From the human T2T-CHM13v2.0 reference genome, Homo sapiens, in assembly GCF_009914755.1 (NCBI RefSeq), contig NC_060941.1: DNA of 64,000 nt. The stretch is one strand, 5' to 3'. Numbering within the stretch: the first letter of the stretch is position 1; every line of letters begins with the position of its first letter. Below are positions 563-34,300 of the stretch, piece by piece. The notes below the pieces were generated by a model. The model was not told where the DNA came from. It did not search any database and saw only the letters and a list, made by a program, of their open reading frames with translations. The translations under genes and the position numbers were made by a program.

Positions 563-11863
<11,301 letters not shown>

Positions 11864-21142: not shown

Positions 21143-24100
21143 CAATATGGAGCTGGCCTCACCCAGCTCTGCTGCTCTGTTGGTCATGGGAGCAAGGTGG
21201 ACTTGCCCTGGACCTTCCCTACTTGTGCTCCTCTGTTATGGGCAGCTCTTGCCTTGGCTCAGGATCAAGGGTGAACACAGTTTAGGTGTGGCTGGGACCC
21301 CAAGAAGCATGGGACCAGACAAAGGGACTGGGTGCGGACAGGACCTTCTCAGCACATGATGCCCATATCCTTCCCTGCAGATGACTTCTACAATGAGACC
21401 GAGACCAAGATCTTCCTGCAGTTTTATGACCAAACAGGTGAAGTTGTGTTGAACAAGTTCATGGAGGCCACTTGGAACTATGTCACCAATATCACCAGGA
21501 AAAATCAGGAGGAGATGATGTGATACCACCTCCACCCCAGCCTCTCCTCTCTTTGCTCTTTTTAGGGATTTGGGACCATGGGGCACCACACCTCCTGCCC
21601 CCATCCCAAGCAAGAGGAACAAGGGAAGCCCCAGTGTACATGTCAAAGAGGGCTGCAAGCTCTGGGCCTCCTGGAAGCCCTAATCTTCCTCCAGGCAAGA
21701 ATCTCTTGCTTCTTGTCCTTTGTAAATCTCACCTCCTTGCTTTTAGAGATCCAGGTTTCTGCCCTCTCCCTCTCAGCAAATCTTGCTCCCTAAGCCAATG
21801 GGATTAGGGAGTCAGTTAGGGTGCCATGGCCCTGGAGGTCAAGTGGGACCCTTCCCCTGTCCCCCAACCTTGGTGGCTCTCTTTGCAGCTGCACAAGGAC
21901 ATGGAGAGGTCCCAGTTCATGATTTACTTTGGCACCCAGGCCCACCTGTTTAAAGTCACCCAGTTCAAGGACCCGGATGTGAATGGCATGCTGAGTAAGC
22001 TGCAGAACATAGACAAGGCGGCTCTGTCCAAGGACGAGCTGCGGGAGGTGATGGATGGAACCCCCAGGCCTTTAGGCACATGCTCCCTGGTCCTAGGGGT
22101 CTGGTAGGGGAGACAGAGTGCCTGGGGCAGGAGGGAGGCAGGGAGTGGAGGAAGGGCAGGATCAGAACTTCCTCTGGAGAAGGAGAGGAGTAGAGGTGGG
22201 GGTACCGATCTCTCCTGGCTGGTGGGGCGAGCACTGGGGGGGGACCTGGGGCACCAGCCTACCCTGGGTAACACCTGTCCCCCCAGTATAACGAGCTTCT
22301 GGCCTACCTGGAGATGACATACAGTATGGCCCAGGTGTGCCTGAATGAGGGGCCCTGCCTGTCCCTGGAGTCTGGTGAACACCCAAGCCCTGTCCCACCC
22401 AACCACAGAATCTCCAGCACTCAGTCCCTTCCAGGGGCCCCTCCCAGCCCCCAACCACCCTCCCTTATTGCCAGGAGGGTGAGGGAAGAGGCAAGTGGGA
22501 GTGGGTCCCCCATGGCTCCTTTTCTGGGCATAGAACTCGAAGTCATGGCCACCTCCAGGGACAAAGAGGAGCTGCTGTGGGCCTGGCAGGGCTGGCAGGA
22601 TGCCGTGGGCCGCCAGATCTGCACCACCTTCGAGCACTATGTGGAGCTCAGCAACAAGGCTGCACAGCTCAACGGTGAGCAGATGGGATGCCACAGAGCT
22701 TGGAGTGATGGCAAGGAAGGGGCAAAGCTGAGCTTTCCCAGAGTGAAGGTGGCCGTAGGGCCCTGGAGACAGGACCTATGAGCCCTGCAGCTGGGCTCTC
22801 CAAATATTCATAGAGCACCTAGGTGCTAGGTGCTGGGGAGGTTCTGACGACACATAGGTGAAAAGACAGGCACCTGCCCTCATGCACCTACGGTCCTGCA
22901 GGGAGACAGACCATATTCAGTAAACACCTGTCTCTCACTACCATCTGGGGTGATGCGGAATAGGAAGAGGCTGCTGAGAAAGAGAATGAGAAGAGGCTGC
23001 TGCAGACAAGTGGACAGGGAAGGACTCTGACATTTATCCAAGACCTGAAAGATGGGCAAAAGACGGGAAGCAAGATGTGAAAGAAGAGCAGCCTAGGCAG
23101 AGGCTCCGCGGCAGGAGGAGCCGGTGCTCTGGAAGACCTGAAAGAAGCCCAGGTGGCCACAGGGCTAAGGATGAGGTGGGATAAGAGGGGACTCAGGGCC
23201 TTGCAGGCATGGTGGGGAGCTCGGATCATGGACTTTGCTCAGTGCCTTTCTGAAATGGGCAGGTATTCTCCCCGTTTTGCCAAAGAAGACCCAGACGGTC
23301 AGCGAGGTTGAGTGGCTTCCCTAGAAGGCGTCTGGGTATCCTGTCAGCTAGGCCATGGCTAAAGGGTGAGATGGTGAGCTCCTGGTGAGTCCTCTCTCCT
23401 GTCCTAGGTTACAAAGACATGGGGGCCTTGTGGCACTCCAAGTATGAGTCGGATACCCTGGAGCAAGACCTGGAGCGGCTATTCCAGGAGCTGCGGCCAC
23501 TCTACCTGAACCCGCACACCTACGTGCGCAGGGCCCTCCACCGCCACTATGGGCCCGAGCTCATCGACCTGAGGGGGCCCATCCCTGCCCACCTCCTGGG
23601 TAAAGGCCCTGCTGGTGGCCGAGGTGAGTGCCAGATAAGGGCAGAGACTGTCTCCAGCCTCCTCTTAGCCCCTCTCCTCCTCTTCCAGAGAACACGTTGG
23701 CTCAGTCCTGGGTCAACATCTTAGACCCGGTCCTGCCCTTCCTGAAGAAGATCCCAGAGGATGTCACAAAGATCATGAAAGTCCAGGTTAGTGCTTGGCC
23801 TGTCTGTCCCTGCCCCTCCCCATTGGCATCCTTGGACAAACAGGGCAGCGCCCCCCACACCCCCTCTTCTCCCATAGCACTGGAAGCCAGAGAAAATGTT
23901 GGAAGAGGCTGAGACATTCTTCACCTCCTTGGCGCTGCCACCTGCCCCACCCAGTTTCTGGAAAAAGTTGATGCTAATGAGGCCAACCGATGGGCGAGAG
24001 GTGGAGTGTCACATCTCTGCCTGGAACTTCTACCAGGACGACGATTTCAGGTGCTCACAGCGGCACCACACACCCGGTCCTCTCCTCTGCCCTGTCTGGC

Positions 24101-24239
24101 TGTCTTAGGTATGGGCAGGGGAAAGCCAGGGCAGAGGAGGGAGAAGGCAAGTGAGAAACACAGAAGGAAAGGTGACGTGAGAGGAAAGGGCTTGGTTGCT
24201 GGGTGGATATGGGGCCTGGAGTAAGAAAGAACAATTGCC

Positions 24240-24866
<627 letters not shown>

Positions 24867-25767
24867 TCAGGTGATGAGGATCAAGGGCCCAGCAGGAGGG
24901 CAGCACAAGCCTGGGACCGCAGCTAGGGCTTGGTGGGGTCAGGGCTCTCGGGCAAAGCTACGGGAAGGAGATCCCAGGGGTTGCCTCTTGACTGCCCTCA
25001 CCCTCTTCCCAGAGGATGAGGTCAATTTCCTGATGCATATTGCCCTGGAGAAGATCGCCTTCATCCCCTTTGGCTACCTGATGGACCTGTTTCGCTGGAA
25101 GGTCTTTGACGGCACCATCTGGAAGGACATCTACAATCAGGAGTGGTGGAACCTCAGGTGGGTTGGGCACCATCTTCCACCAGATGGGCCATTTCCAGGA
25201 CTTTCTGCAGCACAAGAACCTCTCTAATCTTCCACACAGGCACTGAGCAGGTCTTTTAGCCTTTCTAGGCTTCAGTCTCCTCATCTGTGAAAAATGGACC
25301 CTGGTGATGGCCCCACCTGCTCCCTGGGTAGCTGGGAAGCTCACACAATGATTGCAACTGAGCTTCTCTAATCACAGAACACTGACCACCAGGCAGGCCC
25401 TCCCAAACCTCCCTCCCTTCCTGGTGCCAGGCAATGGAGTGTGCGGGGGCCTGAGCACTTTCCTTTCTGGGGAAAGACTCCCCATGGGAGAGAGGCAGGC
25501 CCCTAAAATGCACGCATGCCTGCCTCGGGCTTAACATCCCCAAGCTGCCATGGGAACCCACCAGCAGTTGGGAGGCATCACTCTCGAGTGAGGGACCCCC
25601 GTGTTACACCTCATCACTGACCCCTGGCCATTTGATGGGATAATAAATGCCTGTGACCAGGGCTCCTCCATATGTGGCAGGCCGCGGACTGACCAGCTTC
25701 AGTCTGCTGGTCATAGTGTGATTCGGGGTTGCCAGGGGGTGCTCCTGGCTCTGCAACAGGCTCTTAC

Positions 25768-26909
<1,142 letters not shown>

Positions 26910-27369
26910 TGACTGTGACTGGCTCTGTGTCCTGAGGCCAATTCCCTGATCTCCAAACCTTGGTTTCCTCATCTGCAAAATGGGAATAATAGTAGTACTG
27001 CCCCACAGTGATGTTACTCTTTTTTCTTCTCAAGACTTCTTACTAGATGAAATGACCTTGTTTATTGGTCTATAATCTGTCCCCCACTGTTAGGATGCAA
27101 GCAGGGGCCTTGCCTCCCCCGCTCCCCCACTGGTCCCTCCCCCAGAGACCAGGACGGTGTTGAGTGCATGATGCGTGAGTCTATGTGGAGAGCCAGACAT
27201 GGTTCTGAGCATAGAGGAAGTGTTCAGTCAGTGTTAACTGCTATTGTTTTACTCTGATTCCCAATCCCATGTGTTTTCATTTATTTAATCAATAAAAATG
27301 CATTAGGTATCCTCAGCCTGCCAAGTCCAGTTTTGATAGACACGTAGGTGCTTTGAAAAGAAAAAGGCA

Positions 27370-27640
27370 GGCCAGGTGCGGTGGCTCACGCCTATAATCC
27401 CAGCTACTTGGGAAGCTGAGACAAGAGACGCACTTGAACCCAGGATGGGGAGGTTACAGTGAGCTGAGATCACGCCACTGAACTTCAGCCTGGGCAACAG
27501 GGCAAGACTCTGAAAAAAAAAAAAAAAGAAAGAAGAAAAGAAGGAAAGGAAGAAAGGAGGGAGGGAGGGAGGGAGGGAGGGAGGGAGGGAAGGAAGGAAG
27601 GAAGGAAGGAAGGAAGGAAGGAAGGAAGGAAGGAAAAGAA
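27370..27640 (+). repeat. Internally deleted Alu whose tail runs into a (GGGA)n(GGAA)n microsatellite
   Basis: Alu head joined to the right arm at TAATCCCAGC; purine tract about 27512-27642. Confidence 0.85.
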
Positions 27641-28623
27641 AGAGGCTCTGAGAACCTGCCAGACACCACCACCAAGCCCTCTGCCTTTTCCCTGCCAGGT
27701 TGAAATACCAGGGCTTGTGCCCCGCTATTCCTCACTCAGAGGAAGACTTTGATCCAGGTGCCAAGTTCCACTTTTCTGCTGGTGTGCCCTACATACGGTA
27801 AAGGTCTGGGCCCTGTTAGCAGTGCCAGTCCTAGGAGTTGAGGGGCATGGGAACTGGGGTGAGGATTTGCAGGAAGGCCCTAGGTCCAAATGTCACCCTG
27901 TACCCGTGCCCATCTCTTCCTGTTGGGCTGCGCAGCCTTCTGAGGCCTCTGACCTAGAATCCTTTGAGCTTTTGCATCAGGTCCAGTGTAGAGGGCAGAG
28001 CTGATGAGAATATTCTAGACCATCCCTGCTGTCCCTTGGAGGAGAGCAGGTCAGAGGGGGGCAAGGGTTGGGGTGACTGCTGGTTCAGAAAGCTAGAGAA
28101 GGAGAGCCCCCCAGCACTCTAGGGTCAGCCCAAGACTGGGCCCTGCCCAAGGAGCCTCCGCTCAGGCAGTGACTGCTGACATGGGGCCCTCGTGGCCACT
28201 GCATGTCAGAGCTGCCTGGTCCCAAGTGGCTCTGAGTTTCCCACTCCTGGTCTCCACTCCCCAGCCTGCCCTCACGTTTCTCAACCAGGTACTTCCTCAG
28301 TCTGGTGCTCCAGTTCCAGTTCCACGAAACACTGTGCAAAGCCTCGGGCCACATGGGTCCACTGCACCAGTGTGACATCTACAACTCCAAGATTGCCGGG
28401 AAGCTCCTGGGGTGAGTGCCCTCTCCTTCATTTGTTCTGGGCTCCCCCATCTCCCTTTAAGGAAGTCCTGCTCCAGGCTCCCTCTCCACACCTGACTACA
28501 CTAGACACCTTGAGCAGAGCTTCATTAAGCTTATATTCTAGCGGAATTTCTTCCTCATGTCAGACTGCAGTCTTTCCTACATTAATCAGAGCCCATTTCC
28601 TCTTGTGCAGCCTTCTGTGTTCA

Positions 28624-28953
<330 letters not shown>

Positions 28954-29699
28954 TTAGCCCCTCCCACTAACACACACACACACACACATGCACACACATA
29001 TGCCAGTAAGCCAAACTGTCCCAGATAGGAAGCCAGCACTGGGGTTCTACCTCAGGCTTCAGCCTTCCGTCCGAATCCCCCTTATCCTTTCCTTACAAGG
29101 TGCTGACCTACCCTCTCAGCAGCACTTGGCACACCCTTCAGTGCAGTCTGTTTCTCCCACCTCTTCTTGGAGGTGCCCAAATCCAGTTCCCAGGCTGATC
29201 CAGGTTACTTTCACAGTAGCCTCTTGGCATGCTTCTGGTCAGCCTGTGGTCCACTTTGACCCTTGAGTCTTTTTCTCTGCACTTGGTGTTTAGCTTATTC
29301 TTTCCATGCTTACCTATGTGGCAGTGGTTTTTAGTCCCAAAGCAAACCCTGAGGGAGTAGGGGACTGAACTGAAAATGTGAAGCATTTACTACTACAGGA
29401 GGTGCTCTCTGATGAGTACTCTTACAGTGTTTCATATTATAATAATAGCTCTTAACTTTGCAAAGTGGATATTATTATCTGCCTTTTACAAATTATGAAA
29501 CTGAAGGCAAGAGAGGTGGTGTCGTTGTGCATCATTCATCTAGCAAGAAGCAAAGTCATGCTTTGAAACCAGAACTGACTCCAGAACACATTATCTTTCA
29601 CCCTGTTCGCCTCCATCATTCAAAGAATACAGCCCCTGGTGAGCTTAGATCCAGGTCTAACTGGTTCCAAGATCAGCACTCCAACCTTGGAGATGTGGA

Positions 29700-29900
29700 G
29701 CTCACCCACCGACTTGATCATTTTCCTGTTGAATTTCAACGGATTTCAATAGGTCCATTTCCCTAATTGGTCAAGGTCATCTTGAGCTTTATTCCTGTCT
29801 CCTAGAGGATTAACACTGCCACAAATTTAGTATCCTTTGCAAATTTAATGAGCATATTTTTGATTCCACCATGCAATTTATCTGTAGCCACCAGGCCAGA
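29700..29900 (-). mobile_element. L3/CR1 LINE fossil (RT catalytic region)
   Basis: Minus-strand peptide GGIKNMLIKFAKDTKF resembles the CR1 RT motif ...LIKFADDTKL. Confidence 0.6.
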
Positions 29901-30200
29901 TGGGGTTTCAGGACTGATCCCCTGGGCTTTGCTCCTAGGGAGGGCTGCACCTTGCATGACTGTTGTCTCCCTAGTAGATTTGCTCTTCCATCCTTTCACG
30001 TCTCAGGGCTTTATTCTAGCTGATTGCCCAGCTTTGAGCTTTTCTGAACATGTTGAACATAAGGGCACCTCTCTGCTCTTTGCATTCCTATCTCTGGCTG
30101 CCTGTCATTTATTCATTCAGTAAACATTTACTTGTCCTCATGCAGACCAGCTGCTCTGCATCCAACAGGGGTAGATGAACCACAGGATAAATAAATTTCA

Positions 30201-31302
<1,102 letters not shown>

Positions 31303-34300
31303 AAGATATCTGTTTTCTTTTACATCAACTCACCTCTTTCATCCCACCTGATTGGTGGGATGTTTGACCTCAGTCATTTTCACCACTTCCCACGCTCACC
31401 CCACTCAAGGTGCACAGGGCTCTCAGGGTCTGACTTGGCACCAAAGCATGTGGCCAGTGAGTCATCTCTTGTCATTGCTCACCAGTCCCTGTGTGTCCCT
31501 GGCCAGACTCCTGCTCAGGGAAAATCCTGATTCCAGGCTTAGGACTTCACATACCATTTTGTGAGCCGTGGGCAGAGGAAAGGTTTCTGAGTAAGGAGGA
31601 TATCATGACCTTTGCAGATGATGAAATAGCAGCAGAGCCGAATATGGTTTGTGGAGGGGAGAGGGGATGTGAGTGCTTGCAGGGGGAAAAGAGAAAGATT
31701 CTTGGCTGCTCTTTTGCCTAATTGATCTTAAAACTTGGTTTTGCTACTTTTGATTCATCCTCCTAAATGTGATGGCCCTGAGTCAGGCTCTGGGCTGCTT
31801 CTGTTGGGAATGGAGGGTTGAATTGGGCCTGGTCAAAGTTCTCAAAGTCACCCAGCTTCACCCCACCAGCCATGGTGCGCCTGACCTTGTCCATGGGGTG
31901 TGTTGTTGTCACTTTGGAGTTGAAAGCTCCAGGCAGCATCTAGTTGTCATCTCTGCTGCTCTCTGGTCTCATGTCCTGTCCACATGGGCTGTTGGCTGCC
32001 CTTTGGTCAAACATCTTGTCCCACCCAGCCTGAAGGACTGTTTCTAAATGGGTAGATTCTCAATGGTTGAAGCTTTTCCCCTACTAGGTTCTTCCTCTTA
32101 CTCAGGAGCCAGCATCAGAACCTCTTACCTAGAGTTAGTTGTGGTTTTTCTTCTCCAGTGGTATCTGCCAAGGCCCCACTGACCTTTGGTTTCCCTAACT
32201 CTTTCTTTTCCAGTTGTTTATTAAGTGATGCGCATAAGCCTTTGCAAGCTACAAACCCTCCTTCATCATTGTGGGACTTAGTCCTCATCACAATGAGGGC
32301 AGGTATTCATGGCTCCCATTTTACTGATGAGGAAACTGAGGCCGAGAGAGGCTAAGTTGCCTGCTTAAGGTTATGCAGTCCATAAGTAGCACTGCTAGGT
32401 CAGGTTTAAGCCTGGGCCCTGTTAGTCTAGACTCTAGATCGTGACCTCTGGGCCTCTGGGTCCCAAGTCTGTCCTGAGAGTTGGATCAAGGAACAACAGG
32501 TTGTGAAGGATAAACATCTGCCCACCACTGCCTCTCCTGGGGACTCTGGAGTGGAGAAGCCTGGAGCCCTGGCTTCAGCACACCTTATACTCCCATTGTG
32601 AGCCCAAGGGACCTAGCATAAAGTTCAACCACCTGCCCCTAAGGACTGGGTGTGCCGTGAAACACAGCTGACATTTGTGCAGCACTACAGGTGGTGTGCG
32701 GAGCACCTCCCATGCTCATGATGTTTCTAATCCTCCCAAACCCTCCCTGAAACCAGAAAGGGGTGAAGAGCTGCCACTATCTACCAACACCGAGCACCTC
32801 ACGGGAAACAGTGTCTCAGGACTTTATGCCTATTTGAGTCCAGGAGAATAATAATCATCACAGTATTACCAGTAGTACTAGGAATCATCATCATCATCAG
32901 TAGTTAACGTGTATTGCCTGCATGCTATGCTCCCAGCACCGTGTTTATTTAATCATTACAATGGCTCTTCGAGGTAGATACCATTATCATCTCCGTTTTA
33001 TGGATATGGAAACTGAGGCTCAGAAAGGTTACTTGCCCAAGGCCCCACAGCTACTAAATGGCAGAGCTGAGATTCAAACCCAGATTAATCTTCTTTCAAA
33101 CTTGTGATTGTATCCACTATGCCAAGCTCTGCGGGAAAGTTCTGGCTGGCCAATCGCTGGGGCTGGGATTGGGTGCACTGGGGGTCTCAGCTGCACCAGC
33201 TGATGCCCTCACACAGCCTCACAGCTGCACCCACTCCCCTAGGGATGCTCTAAAGCTGGGCTCAAGCAAGCCCTGGCCAGAGGTCCTAAAGATGCTGACT
33301 GGGGAGTCTGAGGTGTCTACAAATGTCTTCATGACCTACTTCAAACCCCTACTGACCTGGCTGGTGACAGAACATGCAGCAAGGGGACATCTTAGGCTGG
33401 CCAGACTTCAGCTGTTCCTTTGAAGGTTTGATAATCTGACCCTGGTTCCAGCTCTGGGCCAGCCCCAGGCTCCACCTTACCCTGCTCTGTCCTAGTACCT
33501 ACCCCTACCCAGCCTTAACCCCTGGCTCATTCATGACCTGGCTTGAATCAACAGCACTGCTGCTGTGGGACCCTGTCTGTACCAGGCCTGATGCAGCTTC
33601 AGCCAAGACCACCGCTCCCACCACAGCCCCTGGCTCAGTTGCTTCCTTGCACACTGTCCAGCTAGGTTGCCAGGCTGACATCTGAGCAAAGGATCAGCAT
33701 CTTGCCTCTGGTCCCTTGCATGCAGGGGCATGTAGTCCAATCAGATCTCCTCTGACAGCCACAGGAGACCCCAGGGGTCCCTCTCCAGTTCTACCCACCC
33801 TATGAGACTCCTATGTCTTCCACAGAAAAAGACACAGACAAAGTGACATTCCTGAGTCTGAAGCTGGACCCCAACCAGGCTAAATTTGGGTACTGGGTGC
33901 TGTTGGCCCTGGGCTTTGTCATGTCTCTGGTGGTGCTGGGGCTGGCCTGCAGGCTGCAGTCCCTGGAAAAACAGTCACTGACTCAAGACACTGAGATATT
34001 CAGCCCACTGCCCAATGCCTGCTTCCTGGGCATAGCCATGGAACCCTGCCAGGCTGCTAAAGGACAGTGGATGCTGCTGGGCCTCTGCCTTGTCCTGATG
34101 CTGTGCTCAATCAGCCTGGCCATCTGGATTTTCACACAGTAAAGCAGGAAGCCTCCAAGGGTAAGAGCTGAATGGTGAAGTTGGGACTAGACACCAGTGA
34201 ACTGGTGAGGCTGGGGGGCAGGAGGAGGGAGGCTGAGCCAGAGAGTTGGGGGGCAGAGGAGGGGACAGCCTGCATGCATAGTGCCCAATTATAATTGGGT

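What the first reader, a model, noticed from the sequence alone, without database searches (positions are those of the whole stretch)
25170..25240. Hidden intronic copy of the ACE3P zinc-motif segment reads HQMGH, while the exon reads ACE-like HEMGH
Seen: 12 bp after the donor at 25157 lies a 71-bp copy (about 85% identical by eye) of exon segment 24689-24760: ATC TTC CAC CAG ATG GGC CAT TTC CAG GAC TTT CTG CAG CAC AAG AAC CTC TCT = [18 protein letters not shown]. It lacks the exon's 1-bp frameshift and has CAG (Gln) where the exon has GAA (Glu). The exon's CCACGAAATGGGCCA is identical to ACE 7981-7995. Known: non-primate Ace3 proteins (e.g. rodent) carry the inactive HQMGH, whereas human ACE3P has HEMGH. 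Inference: the intronic copy is a fossil of the ancestral catalytically dead motif. The exon's Glu (a two-base change) was probably re-acquired later by short-tract gene conversion from neighbouring ACE. Alternatively, exon and copy have exchanged sequence, acting as an E/Q toggle donor for the active site.
Basis: partly seen in the sequence, partly recalled or inferred. Interest (0 to 1): 0.85.

Follow-up and report, generated by a model that had tools for sequence, protein, structure and literature searches.

The report
Old intronic copy of ACE3P zinc-motif exon
A 71-base piece of the dead human gene ACE3P was copied long ago into the next intron, and the copy still spells the inactive HQMGH motif of other mammals, so the enzyme-like HEMGH in the human exon is a later accident in a dying gene.

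Summary
Window 25170-25240 is a direct copy of ACE3P exon-8 piece 24689-24760: 63 matches, 7 mismatches and two small gaps. In the whole T2T genome the copy matches only itself and that exon.

The copy reads CAG (Gln) where the exon reads GAA (Glu). It also keeps the base that the exon lost just after the second His codon.

All 39 placental Ace3 proteins I retrieved read HQMGH followed by Ile. They include mouse lemur, slow loris, galago, tarsier and treeshrew. Gln is therefore ancestral, and the copy is a fossil of it.

Exon and copy share two human-lineage changes (Val to Ile, and probably Ile to Phe). This places the duplication after the tarsier split. Their divergence gives about 49 My (19-103).

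The gene-conversion idea gets no support:
- Any tract could be at most 15 nt.
- A 15-nt identity run arises by chance in 419 of 5000 shuffles.
- Two of seven differences falling within 2 nt is expected (P = 0.75).
- 5 of 60 human-derived ACE3P residues match ACE by coincidence anyway.

The "E/Q toggle" idea has no support either.

The copy best fits a known class, repair-mediated proximal duplication. It is a neat but ordinary molecular fossil in a pseudogene.

The parts
24648..24870 (+). ACE3P exon 8 (mouse Ace3 numbering), homologue of ACE C-domain exon 7933-8156. It is 223 nt instead of 224.
   Evidence: blastn/tblastn to ACE exons; AG at 24646-47 and GT at 24871-72; mouse exon 8 is 224 nt (PMC1925091 Table 2).
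24689..24760 (+). Donor segment: the 72 nt of exon 8 that were copied. It encodes (S)IFHEMGH, then the frameshift, then [16 protein letters not shown].
24700..24702 (+). GAA (Glu) codon of the exon's HEMGH. It is derived relative to the Gln of all placental Ace3 proteins seen.
24709..24713 (+). CAT followed by TC: the site of the 1-nt deletion that breaks the frame. The copy has CAT TTC here.
   Evidence: the deletion was confirmed by PCR in three cell lines by Rella et al. (PMC1925091).
24855..24857 (+). In-frame TAG in the frame that follows the deletion, a second lesion of exon 8.
25013..25157 (+). ACE3P exon 9 (145 nt, 77% identical to ACE 8419-8563).
25158..25169 (+). First 12 nt of intron 9 (GTGGGTTGGGCA), the left flank of the copy. 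The mouse donor reads GTGGGGA.
   Evidence: PMC1925091 Table 2
25170..25240 (+). The 71-nt intronic copy, in direct orientation, 482 nt downstream of its donor.
25181..25183 (+). CAG (Gln) codon of the copy's HQMGH, the ancestral Ace3 state.
25190..25195 (+). CAT TTC: the copy keeps the base that the exon lost. It reads Phe where all 39 Ace3 proteins have Ile.
25226..25227 (+). Site of the copy's own 2-nt deletion. The A at 25226 matches the exon's derived Ile codon (ATC), where other primates have Val.
25243..25292 (+). Right flank: an old interspersed repeat (MIR-like; the name is recalled). Its detectable homology starts 3-4 nt after the copy ends.
   Evidence: It matches places on three other chromosomes at 87-94%. 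The solid homology block starts at 25243/25244 in 4 of 5 natural copies compared, and at 25257 in the fifth.
7981..7995 (+). ACE C-domain stretch identical to the exon's CCACGAAATGGGCCA, the proposed conversion donor.

Best explanation
On the lineage leading to anthropoid primates, a break in intron 9 of ACE3 was repaired by copying about 71 nt from exon 8, 482 nt upstream. The break lay 12 nt after the splice donor, at the edge of an old MIR-like repeat. This was a repair-mediated proximal duplication.

At that time the exon still read HQMGH, as in all other placental Ace3. It already carried two lineage-specific changes: Val to Ile, and most likely Ile to Phe, which made a TTT run. The copy has drifted neutrally since then (Tyr to Asp, Tyr to His, Arg to His, a 2-nt deletion).

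The exon, in a gene already losing or having lost constraint, drifted too. A C-to-G point change turned Gln into Glu, and one T of the TTT run was lost, which broke the frame. The human HEMGH is therefore a secondary, functionless reversal and not a retained or restored active site. The copy has no function and serves as a dated record of the exon's earlier state.

Shown: the copy itself, its uniqueness, and the state of Ace3 in other mammals. Inferred: the order of events, the age, the repair mechanism, and point mutation rather than conversion.
For: - The copy is real and has a single source.
- All 39 Ace3-type proteins with the motif read HQMGH followed by Ile. They cover strepsirrhines, tarsier, treeshrew, lagomorphs, rodents, Laurasiatheria, Afrotheria and Xenarthra.
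- Exon and copy share A at the Val/Ile site, where 5 of 5 of lemur, loris, galago, tarsier and treeshrew have Val.
- The copy has TTC where the exon has -TC and all others have Ile. One shared change followed by a slip in a T run explains both.
- Divergence is 7 of 70 sites, giving 48.8 My (19-103) at the pairwise rate used by Pace et al. (PMC2671141 section 8).
- There is no signal of conversion. Of 60 human-derived residues, 5 equal the tACE residue by coincidence, on four different exons.
- No anthropoid Ace3 protein appears among the best 120 hits of a profile that contains human ACE3P pieces, which fits an early loss of the gene.
- Size (71 nt), a single donor and a donor within 5 kb on the same chromosome fit the 824 proximal repair-mediated duplications of Pace et al. 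2009.
Against: - No DNA of any other species could be read here. Presence of the copy in other primates, the empty site, and CAA versus CAG in other Ace3 genes are all untested.
- The breakpoints show no clear microhomology. The possible target-site duplication (TTGGGCA / CTGAGCA, 5 of 7) has about a 0.19 chance of arising by accident.
- The left flank is only 12 nt, so 'inserted into a repeat' is not shown.
- The Val-to-Ile argument rests on one base next to a gap.
- Both exon-versus-copy differences in the E/Q codon make the exon identical to the ACE C-domain codon GAA, which a very short conversion would also explain.
- The absence of anthropoid Ace3 proteins is an argument from a list cut at 120 of 1316 hits. 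Mouse, rat and cow Ace3 also fell below that cut.
Confidence: 0.7

Rival explanations
1. One reading: after the copy was made, a short-tract non-allelic gene conversion from the ACE C-domain exon (16.7 kb upstream) overwrote CAG with GAA in the ACE3P exon.
For: Exon and ACE share the exact codon GAA inside a 15-nt identical run. The ACE N-domain and ACE2 use GAG, so the third base also matches the C-domain specifically.
Against: The tract is bounded to at most 15 nt by sites where the exon keeps the ACE3 state. The surrounding exon is only 65% identical to ACE, which is poor substrate for conversion (established knowledge, recalled). A run of 15 or more occurs in 419 of 5000 shuffles, and 3 runs were seen against 3.36 expected. 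Third-base identity is ordinary: 7 of 11 and 16 of 26 in exon 8, within a range of 32-82%. The other three human-derived residues of exon 8a do not go towards ACE. Two nearby differences are expected by chance (P = 0.75). The third-base difference may lie on the copy's branch.
Confidence: 0.07
2. The exon already read Glu when the copy was made, and the copy's Gln arose independently.
For: With ACE alone as outgroup, parsimony would place both codon changes on the copy's branch.
Against: This needs Gln to Glu on the stem and then the exact reverse change at the same base in the copy. A specific G-to-C change on the copy's branch has a probability of about 0.009-0.018. All 39 placental Ace3 proteins, including five primate or treeshrew species, have Gln.
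Confidence: 0.03
3. A rival for the mechanism only: a 482-nt tandem duplication (24689-25169) was followed by deletion of most of the second unit, rather than a direct 71-nt templated insertion.
For: The copy starts exactly where a tandem unit beginning at 24689 would end. Tandem duplication is the commonest kind of short duplication (established knowledge, recalled).
Against: Nothing downstream of 25240 resembles the rest of exon 8, intron 8 or exon 9. The deletion would have to end almost exactly at the unit's end, so that the MIR-like flank follows within 3 nt.
Confidence: 0.1
4. Exon and copy exchange sequence and act as a functional E/Q switch for the active site.
For: None beyond the existence of two versions of the motif.
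Against: ACE3P has a frameshift and an in-frame stop in this very exon, and no transcript was found by Rella et al.. The copy covers a third of the exon, has a 2-nt deletion and two radical substitutions, and has no splice sites. The differences are evenly spread with no mosaic.
Confidence: 0.01

Closest known systems
[quoted passage not shown]
   Same: An insertion of 50 nt or more whose only other copy lies within 5 kb on the same chromosome. It sits next to or within an old transposable element, dates to primate evolution, and drifts neutrally. That study also found partial and whole exons duplicated into introns.
   Different: At 71 nt it is shorter than their mean of 162 nt. The donor lies only 482 nt away. 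The element is recognisable on one side only, so their pipeline would probably have missed it. The breakpoint signatures are blurred.
ACE3 / ACE3P (Rella et al. 2007, PMC1925091; I read the abstract and passages)
   Same: The same gene. [quoted passage not shown]
   Different: The passages I saw do not mention the intronic copy or any primate other than human, and they treat the human HEXXH simply as 'intact'. Here it is shown to be a secondary change, with Gln in 39 of 39 placental Ace3 proteins and in the fossil copy.
Non-allelic (interlocus) gene conversion between tandem paralogues
   Same: ACE and ACE3P are neighbouring paralogues in the same orientation, and one codon in ACE3P has become identical to the ACE codon.
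   Different: There is no tract beyond 15 nt, no excess of identity runs, and low flanking identity. None of the defining signals is met.

Membership tests
Repair-mediated proximal duplication (Pace et al. 2009) | Inserted sequence of at least 50 nt | tested here: met
   71 nt
Repair-mediated proximal duplication (Pace et al. 2009) | The insert has exactly one other copy in the genome (the donor) | tested here: met
   2 of 2 genome-wide matches are the copy itself and the exon piece. Matches in closed regions are not shown by the tool.
Repair-mediated proximal duplication (Pace et al. 2009) | Donor within 5 kb on the same chromosome and not in tandem (more than 50 nt apart) | tested here: met
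   482 nt start to start, with 409 nt between the donor's end and the copy's start
Repair-mediated proximal duplication (Pace et al. 2009) | The acceptor interrupts a transposable element | tested here: inconclusive
   The right flank is a dispersed MIR-like repeat from 25243. The left flank is only 12 nt, and its TTGGGCA may or may not belong to the element.
Repair-mediated proximal duplication (Pace et al. 2009) | Breakpoint signatures of strand-annealing repair (microhomology, filler, small deletion or target-site duplication) | tested here: inconclusive
   There is no contiguous microhomology at either junction. A possible 7-nt duplication matches at 5 of 7, with a chance probability of about 0.19.
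Repair-mediated proximal duplication (Pace et al. 2009) | Empty orthologous site in an outgroup species | not testable with these tools
Gene-conversion tract from ACE | A run of identity longer than expected from the overall divergence | tested here: not met
   A 15-nt run occurs in 419 of 5000 shuffles. Over nine exons 3 such runs were seen against 3.36 expected.
Gene-conversion tract from ACE | Several linked diagnostic sites switched to the donor state | tested here: not met
   Only the one codon switched. The nearest diagnostic sites on both sides keep the ACE3 state. Third-base identity is ordinary.
Gene-conversion tract from ACE | Phylogenetic incongruence of the tract across species | not testable with these tools
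   This needs ACE and ACE3 DNA from other primates.
ACE3 (Ace3) orthologue, unprocessed pseudogene | Lies downstream of ACE on the same strand, has the ACE-like exon structure, and has sequence closest to Ace3 | tested here: met
   The pieces are 80-90% identical by eye to primate Ace3 and carry the Ace3 signature LSIFH-MGH. RefSeq annotates it as ACE3P.
ACE3 (Ace3) orthologue, unprocessed pseudogene | Disabling lesions | tested here: met
   A 1-nt deletion after 24711 and TAG at 24855-57. Of 13 stop-free pieces, 60 residues are human-derived.
Active M2 peptidase (HEXXH zinc site) | HEXXH with the catalytic Glu in an intact reading frame | tested here: not met
   The letters HEMGH are present, but the frame breaks at the very next codon. 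The copy reads HQMGH.

The most novel reading that the evidence does not exclude
The Gln-to-Glu change was not a random hit in a dead gene. Either an ultra-short (15 nt or less) conversion from ACE restored the codon, or the reversal happened while ACE3 was still expressed in stem anthropoids and briefly re-created a catalytically competent third ACE before the gene died. In both cases the intronic copy would be the only surviving record of the earlier state.
Probability: 0.05. Interest if true: 0.55.

Novelty: new member of a known kind. Interest (0 to 1): 0.3.

Why it matters
It corrects a small point in the literature. The 'intact HEXXH' of human ACE3P, noted in 2007, is a late secondary change and not a relic of an active enzyme.

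It also shows how a short intronic duplicate can act as an internal, datable snapshot of an exon. That snapshot lets the steps of a gene's decay be put in order: Ile to Phe, then the duplication, then Gln to Glu and the frameshift.

It gives a simple presence/absence marker that can be tested across primates. It has no bearing on ACE function or on medicine.

Tried and rejected
Chance similarity is rejected.

The copy does not come from the ACE C-domain, the ACE N-domain or ACE2. It shares the ACE3-specific flanks ATCTTCCAC and AAGAACCTCTC.

I considered co-insertion with the neighbouring MIR-like element by template switching of a reverse transcriptase. I rejected it for two reasons. The copy shares substitutions that arose after the tarsier split, and it is only 10% diverged from the exon. 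Such elements are far older, but that age is recalled and not measured here.

I looked for a hairpin or an RNA gene. The repeats are direct, and Rfam finds nothing at 24000-26000.

I followed ACE exon 17 against ACE3P exon 5 (86.8% over 144 nt, with a 25-nt run) as a possible true conversion. The same residues are conserved in Ace3 of other mammals, and third-base identity is 73%, within a range of 32-82%. That is not convincing evidence of conversion.

The literature searches were ACE3 + angiotensin converting enzyme + pseudogene, 4 papers; HQMGH, 2 papers; ACE3 + primates + angiotensin, 5 papers. None of the passages I read mentions an intronic copy or primate ACE3 states. I did not read any of these papers in full.

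The third protein search (lemur Ace3 as query) was meant to list primate Ace3 proteins. It was swamped by two-domain ACE and showed no further Ace3 apart from one rodent fusion-like protein, so it led nowhere.

The careful tree search did not finish in 288 s, so only the quick tree is reported.

The first fragment alignment (A3) scattered four short pieces. I replaced it with A4, which uses 6 of the 13 stop-free pieces.

Full report
WHAT IS THERE

ACE3P exon 8 (24648-24870) is the homologue of the ACE exon that carries the zinc motif. It reads ...ATC TTC CAC GAA ATG GGC CAT, then lacks one base, and later meets an in-frame TAG at 24855-57. Exon 9 is 25013-25157.

Twelve bases after the exon-9 donor, at 25170-25240, lies a direct copy of exon-8 positions 24689-24760. 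The alignment has 63 matches, 7 mismatches, a 1-nt gap in the exon and a 2-nt gap in the copy.

The local alignment scores 49. Shuffled introns score 10.6 +/- 1.4, with a maximum of 17 in 1000 shuffles. In the whole T2T genome the copy matches two places only, itself and the exon piece (E 7.4e-14). It lies in no masked repeat of 100 nt or more and under no annotated element. Rfam finds nothing at 24000-26000.

WHAT OTHER MAMMALS SAY

Rella et al. 2007 (PMC1925091; abstract and passages) reported three things. [quoted passage not shown] The 'restored' human sequence reads HEMGH. A 1-nt deletion lies directly after the second His, which they confirmed by PCR. The passages I saw mention neither primates nor an intronic copy.

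To get more species I searched the protein database with a profile. It was built from a 515-residue echinoderm ACE plus six stop-free ACE3P exon pieces. Of 1316 hits, the best 120 were listed.

Among the 230 proteins then stored, 39 carry HQMGH, and all 39 follow it with Ile. They include Microcebus, Nycticebus, Otolemur (two entries), Carlito, Tupaia, lagomorphs, rodents, carnivores, bats, ungulates, moles and shrews, Afrotheria and Xenarthra.

No monkey or ape Ace3 appears in the best 120, although the profile contains human pieces and many monkey testis-ACE entries are listed. This suggests that ACE3 is not an annotated protein in any anthropoid. The list was cut at 120, however, and mouse, rat and cow Ace3 are also below the cut. 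A third search meant to settle this was swamped by two-domain ACE.

A quick tree of 28 rows puts the tarsier protein inside the Ace3 clade. It also puts a Tasmanian-devil protein that reads LLSVFHEMGH as sister to all placental Ace3, with SH-aLRT support of 100 (the careful search did not finish). Glu to Gln therefore seems to date to the placental stem.

ORDER OF EVENTS

Gln is ancestral for placental Ace3, primates included, so the copy's CAG is most simply a retention. The alternative is that the copy was made from a Glu exon and then reverted by itself. That needs one specific G-to-C change, with a probability of about 0.009-0.018 on a branch of this length.

Two further sites tie the copy to the human lineage.
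- At the Val/Ile site, lemur, loris, galago, tarsier and treeshrew all have Val. The human exon has ATC (Ile), and the copy has the matching A at 25226.
- After the second His, all 39 Ace3 proteins have Ile. The copy has TTC (Phe) and the exon has -TC. One A-to-T change before the duplication, followed by loss of one T from the resulting TTT run in the exon, explains both without two independent hits at the same base.

The inferred order is therefore: Val to Ile and Ile to Phe, then the duplication, then Gln to Glu and the frameshift in the exon. The Ile is otherwise invariant, so its replacement hints that constraint was already relaxed when the copy was made.

On the copy's branch I place Tyr to Asp, Tyr to His, Arg to His (at a CpG), TTC to TTT and the 2-nt deletion. 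On the exon's branch I place C to G, the 1-nt deletion and perhaps TCT to TCC.

The third base of the E/Q codon is unresolved. It is A in the ACE C-domain and G in the ACE N-domain and ACE2.

Seven differences in 70 sites give a corrected divergence of 0.107. At the pairwise rate used by Pace et al. this is 48.8 My, with a range of 19-103 My. That fits an origin on the anthropoid stem or in early catarrhines.

GENE CONVERSION FROM ACE?

- The exon keeps ACE3-specific bases 5-6 nt upstream of the codon (TT against CA in ACE) and 9 nt downstream (T against C). The copy agrees with the exon at these sites, so a tract could span at most 15 nt.
- The exon-20 alignment is 65% identical. A run of 15 or more occurs in 419 of 5000 column shuffles. 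Over nine exon alignments (1260 columns, 72% identity) I saw 3 such runs against 3.36 expected.
- Third-base identity in codons with the same residue is 7 of 11 and 16 of 26 in the two parts of exon 8. That lies within the 32-82% range of the ten pieces.
- Of 60 residues where human ACE3P departs from a 4-of-5 consensus of lemur, loris, galago, tarsier and treeshrew, 5 happen to equal the human testis-ACE residue. They sit on four different exons, and Gln to Glu is one of them. The other three derived residues of exon 8a do not go towards ACE.
- Two of seven random differences fall within 2 nt of each other with probability 0.75.

Conversion is therefore unnecessary and unsupported. A 3-15-nt tract cannot be excluded from one genome. 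The 'toggle' idea fails because the frame is broken, the copy is a damaged third of an exon without splice sites, and the differences form no mosaic.

HOW THE COPY GOT THERE

The right flank from 25243 is an old dispersed repeat. It matches three other chromosomes at 87-94% and other copies inside ACE3P introns. The solid block of homology begins at 25243/25244 in 4 of 5 natural copies compared, and at 25257 in the fifth. I call it MIR-like from recall and built no consensus.

The copy thus sits between the 12-nt intron start and the edge of this element. The heptamers on either side (TTGGGCA and CTGAGCA) match at 5 of 7 positions. That could be a decayed target-site duplication, or chance at about 0.19. 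I see no clear microhomology.

Nothing after 25240 resembles the remainder of a 482-nt tandem unit. A direct templated insertion is therefore simpler than a tandem duplication followed by a deletion.

The best fit is the class described by Pace et al. 2009 (PMC2671141; abstract, passages, sections 8 and 10). They describe insertions of 50 nt or more captured from a single donor, usually within 5 kb, attributed to synthesis-dependent strand annealing, frequent in early primate evolution and sometimes involving exons. Their method needed a recognisable element on both sides, so this case may not be in their list.

VERDICT

The 'fossil' reading is well supported. The conversion and toggle readings are not.

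The thing is a new example of a known kind of event, inside a known pseudogene. Its value is as an internal snapshot showing that the human HEMGH is secondary. The decisive test is the presence or absence of the copy, and the codon states, in other primates' DNA, which could not be run here.

Noticed in passing
protein P0219 (Sarcophilus harrisii, 730 aa): A marsupial protein groups with placental Ace3 in the quick tree (SH-aLRT 100). It has the Ace3-like context LLSVFH but reads HEMGH. The Glu-to-Gln loss of the catalytic residue may therefore date to the placental stem, with marsupial Ace3 possibly still active.
   Followed up: partly
window 23456-23599 versus ACE 3486-3629: ACE3P exon 5 is 86.8% identical to ACE exon 17 over 144 nt, with a 25-nt identical run. 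That is well above the other exons (63-80%). The residues are conserved in Ace3 of other mammals, and third-base identity is 73%, so constraint rather than conversion seems enough.
   Followed up: partly
(protein lists): No monkey or ape Ace3 protein appears among the best 120 hits of a profile containing human ACE3P pieces, while lemur, loris, galago and tarsier Ace3 do. ACE3 may have died in the anthropoid stem. The list was cut at 120 of 1316 hits, so this is only suggestive.
   Followed up: partly
L001:6498-7382 (chr17:64352498-64353382) and window 7613-8206: The reading frame of ACE N-domain exon 8 stays open for 295 codons, straight through the 339-nt intron 8 into exon 9. The C-domain counterpart is open for 198 codons. 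Retention of that N-domain intron would keep the frame.
   Followed up: no
window 24855-24857: There is an in-frame TAG near the end of ACE3P exon 8, in the frame that follows the 1-nt deletion. It is a second independent lesion in the same exon.
   Followed up: no
window 29481-29519, 32316-32354, 32993-33031 (minus strand): Three further MIR-like fragments lie in ACE3P introns (repeat finder family D10), besides many Alu copies (families D1-D9).
   Followed up: partly
protein P0272 (Scotinomys teguina, 959 aa): A rodent 'hypothetical protein' of 959 residues is 73% identical to lemur Ace3 over 87% of the query. It is longer than any other Ace3 seen and may be a fusion or a mis-prediction.
   Followed up: no
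window 21901-33986 (13 stop-free ACE3P pieces): Human ACE3P carries 60 derived residues relative to a consensus of lemur, loris, galago, tarsier and treeshrew. They cluster in exons 6, 7 and 12, as expected for long neutral decay.
   Followed up: partly
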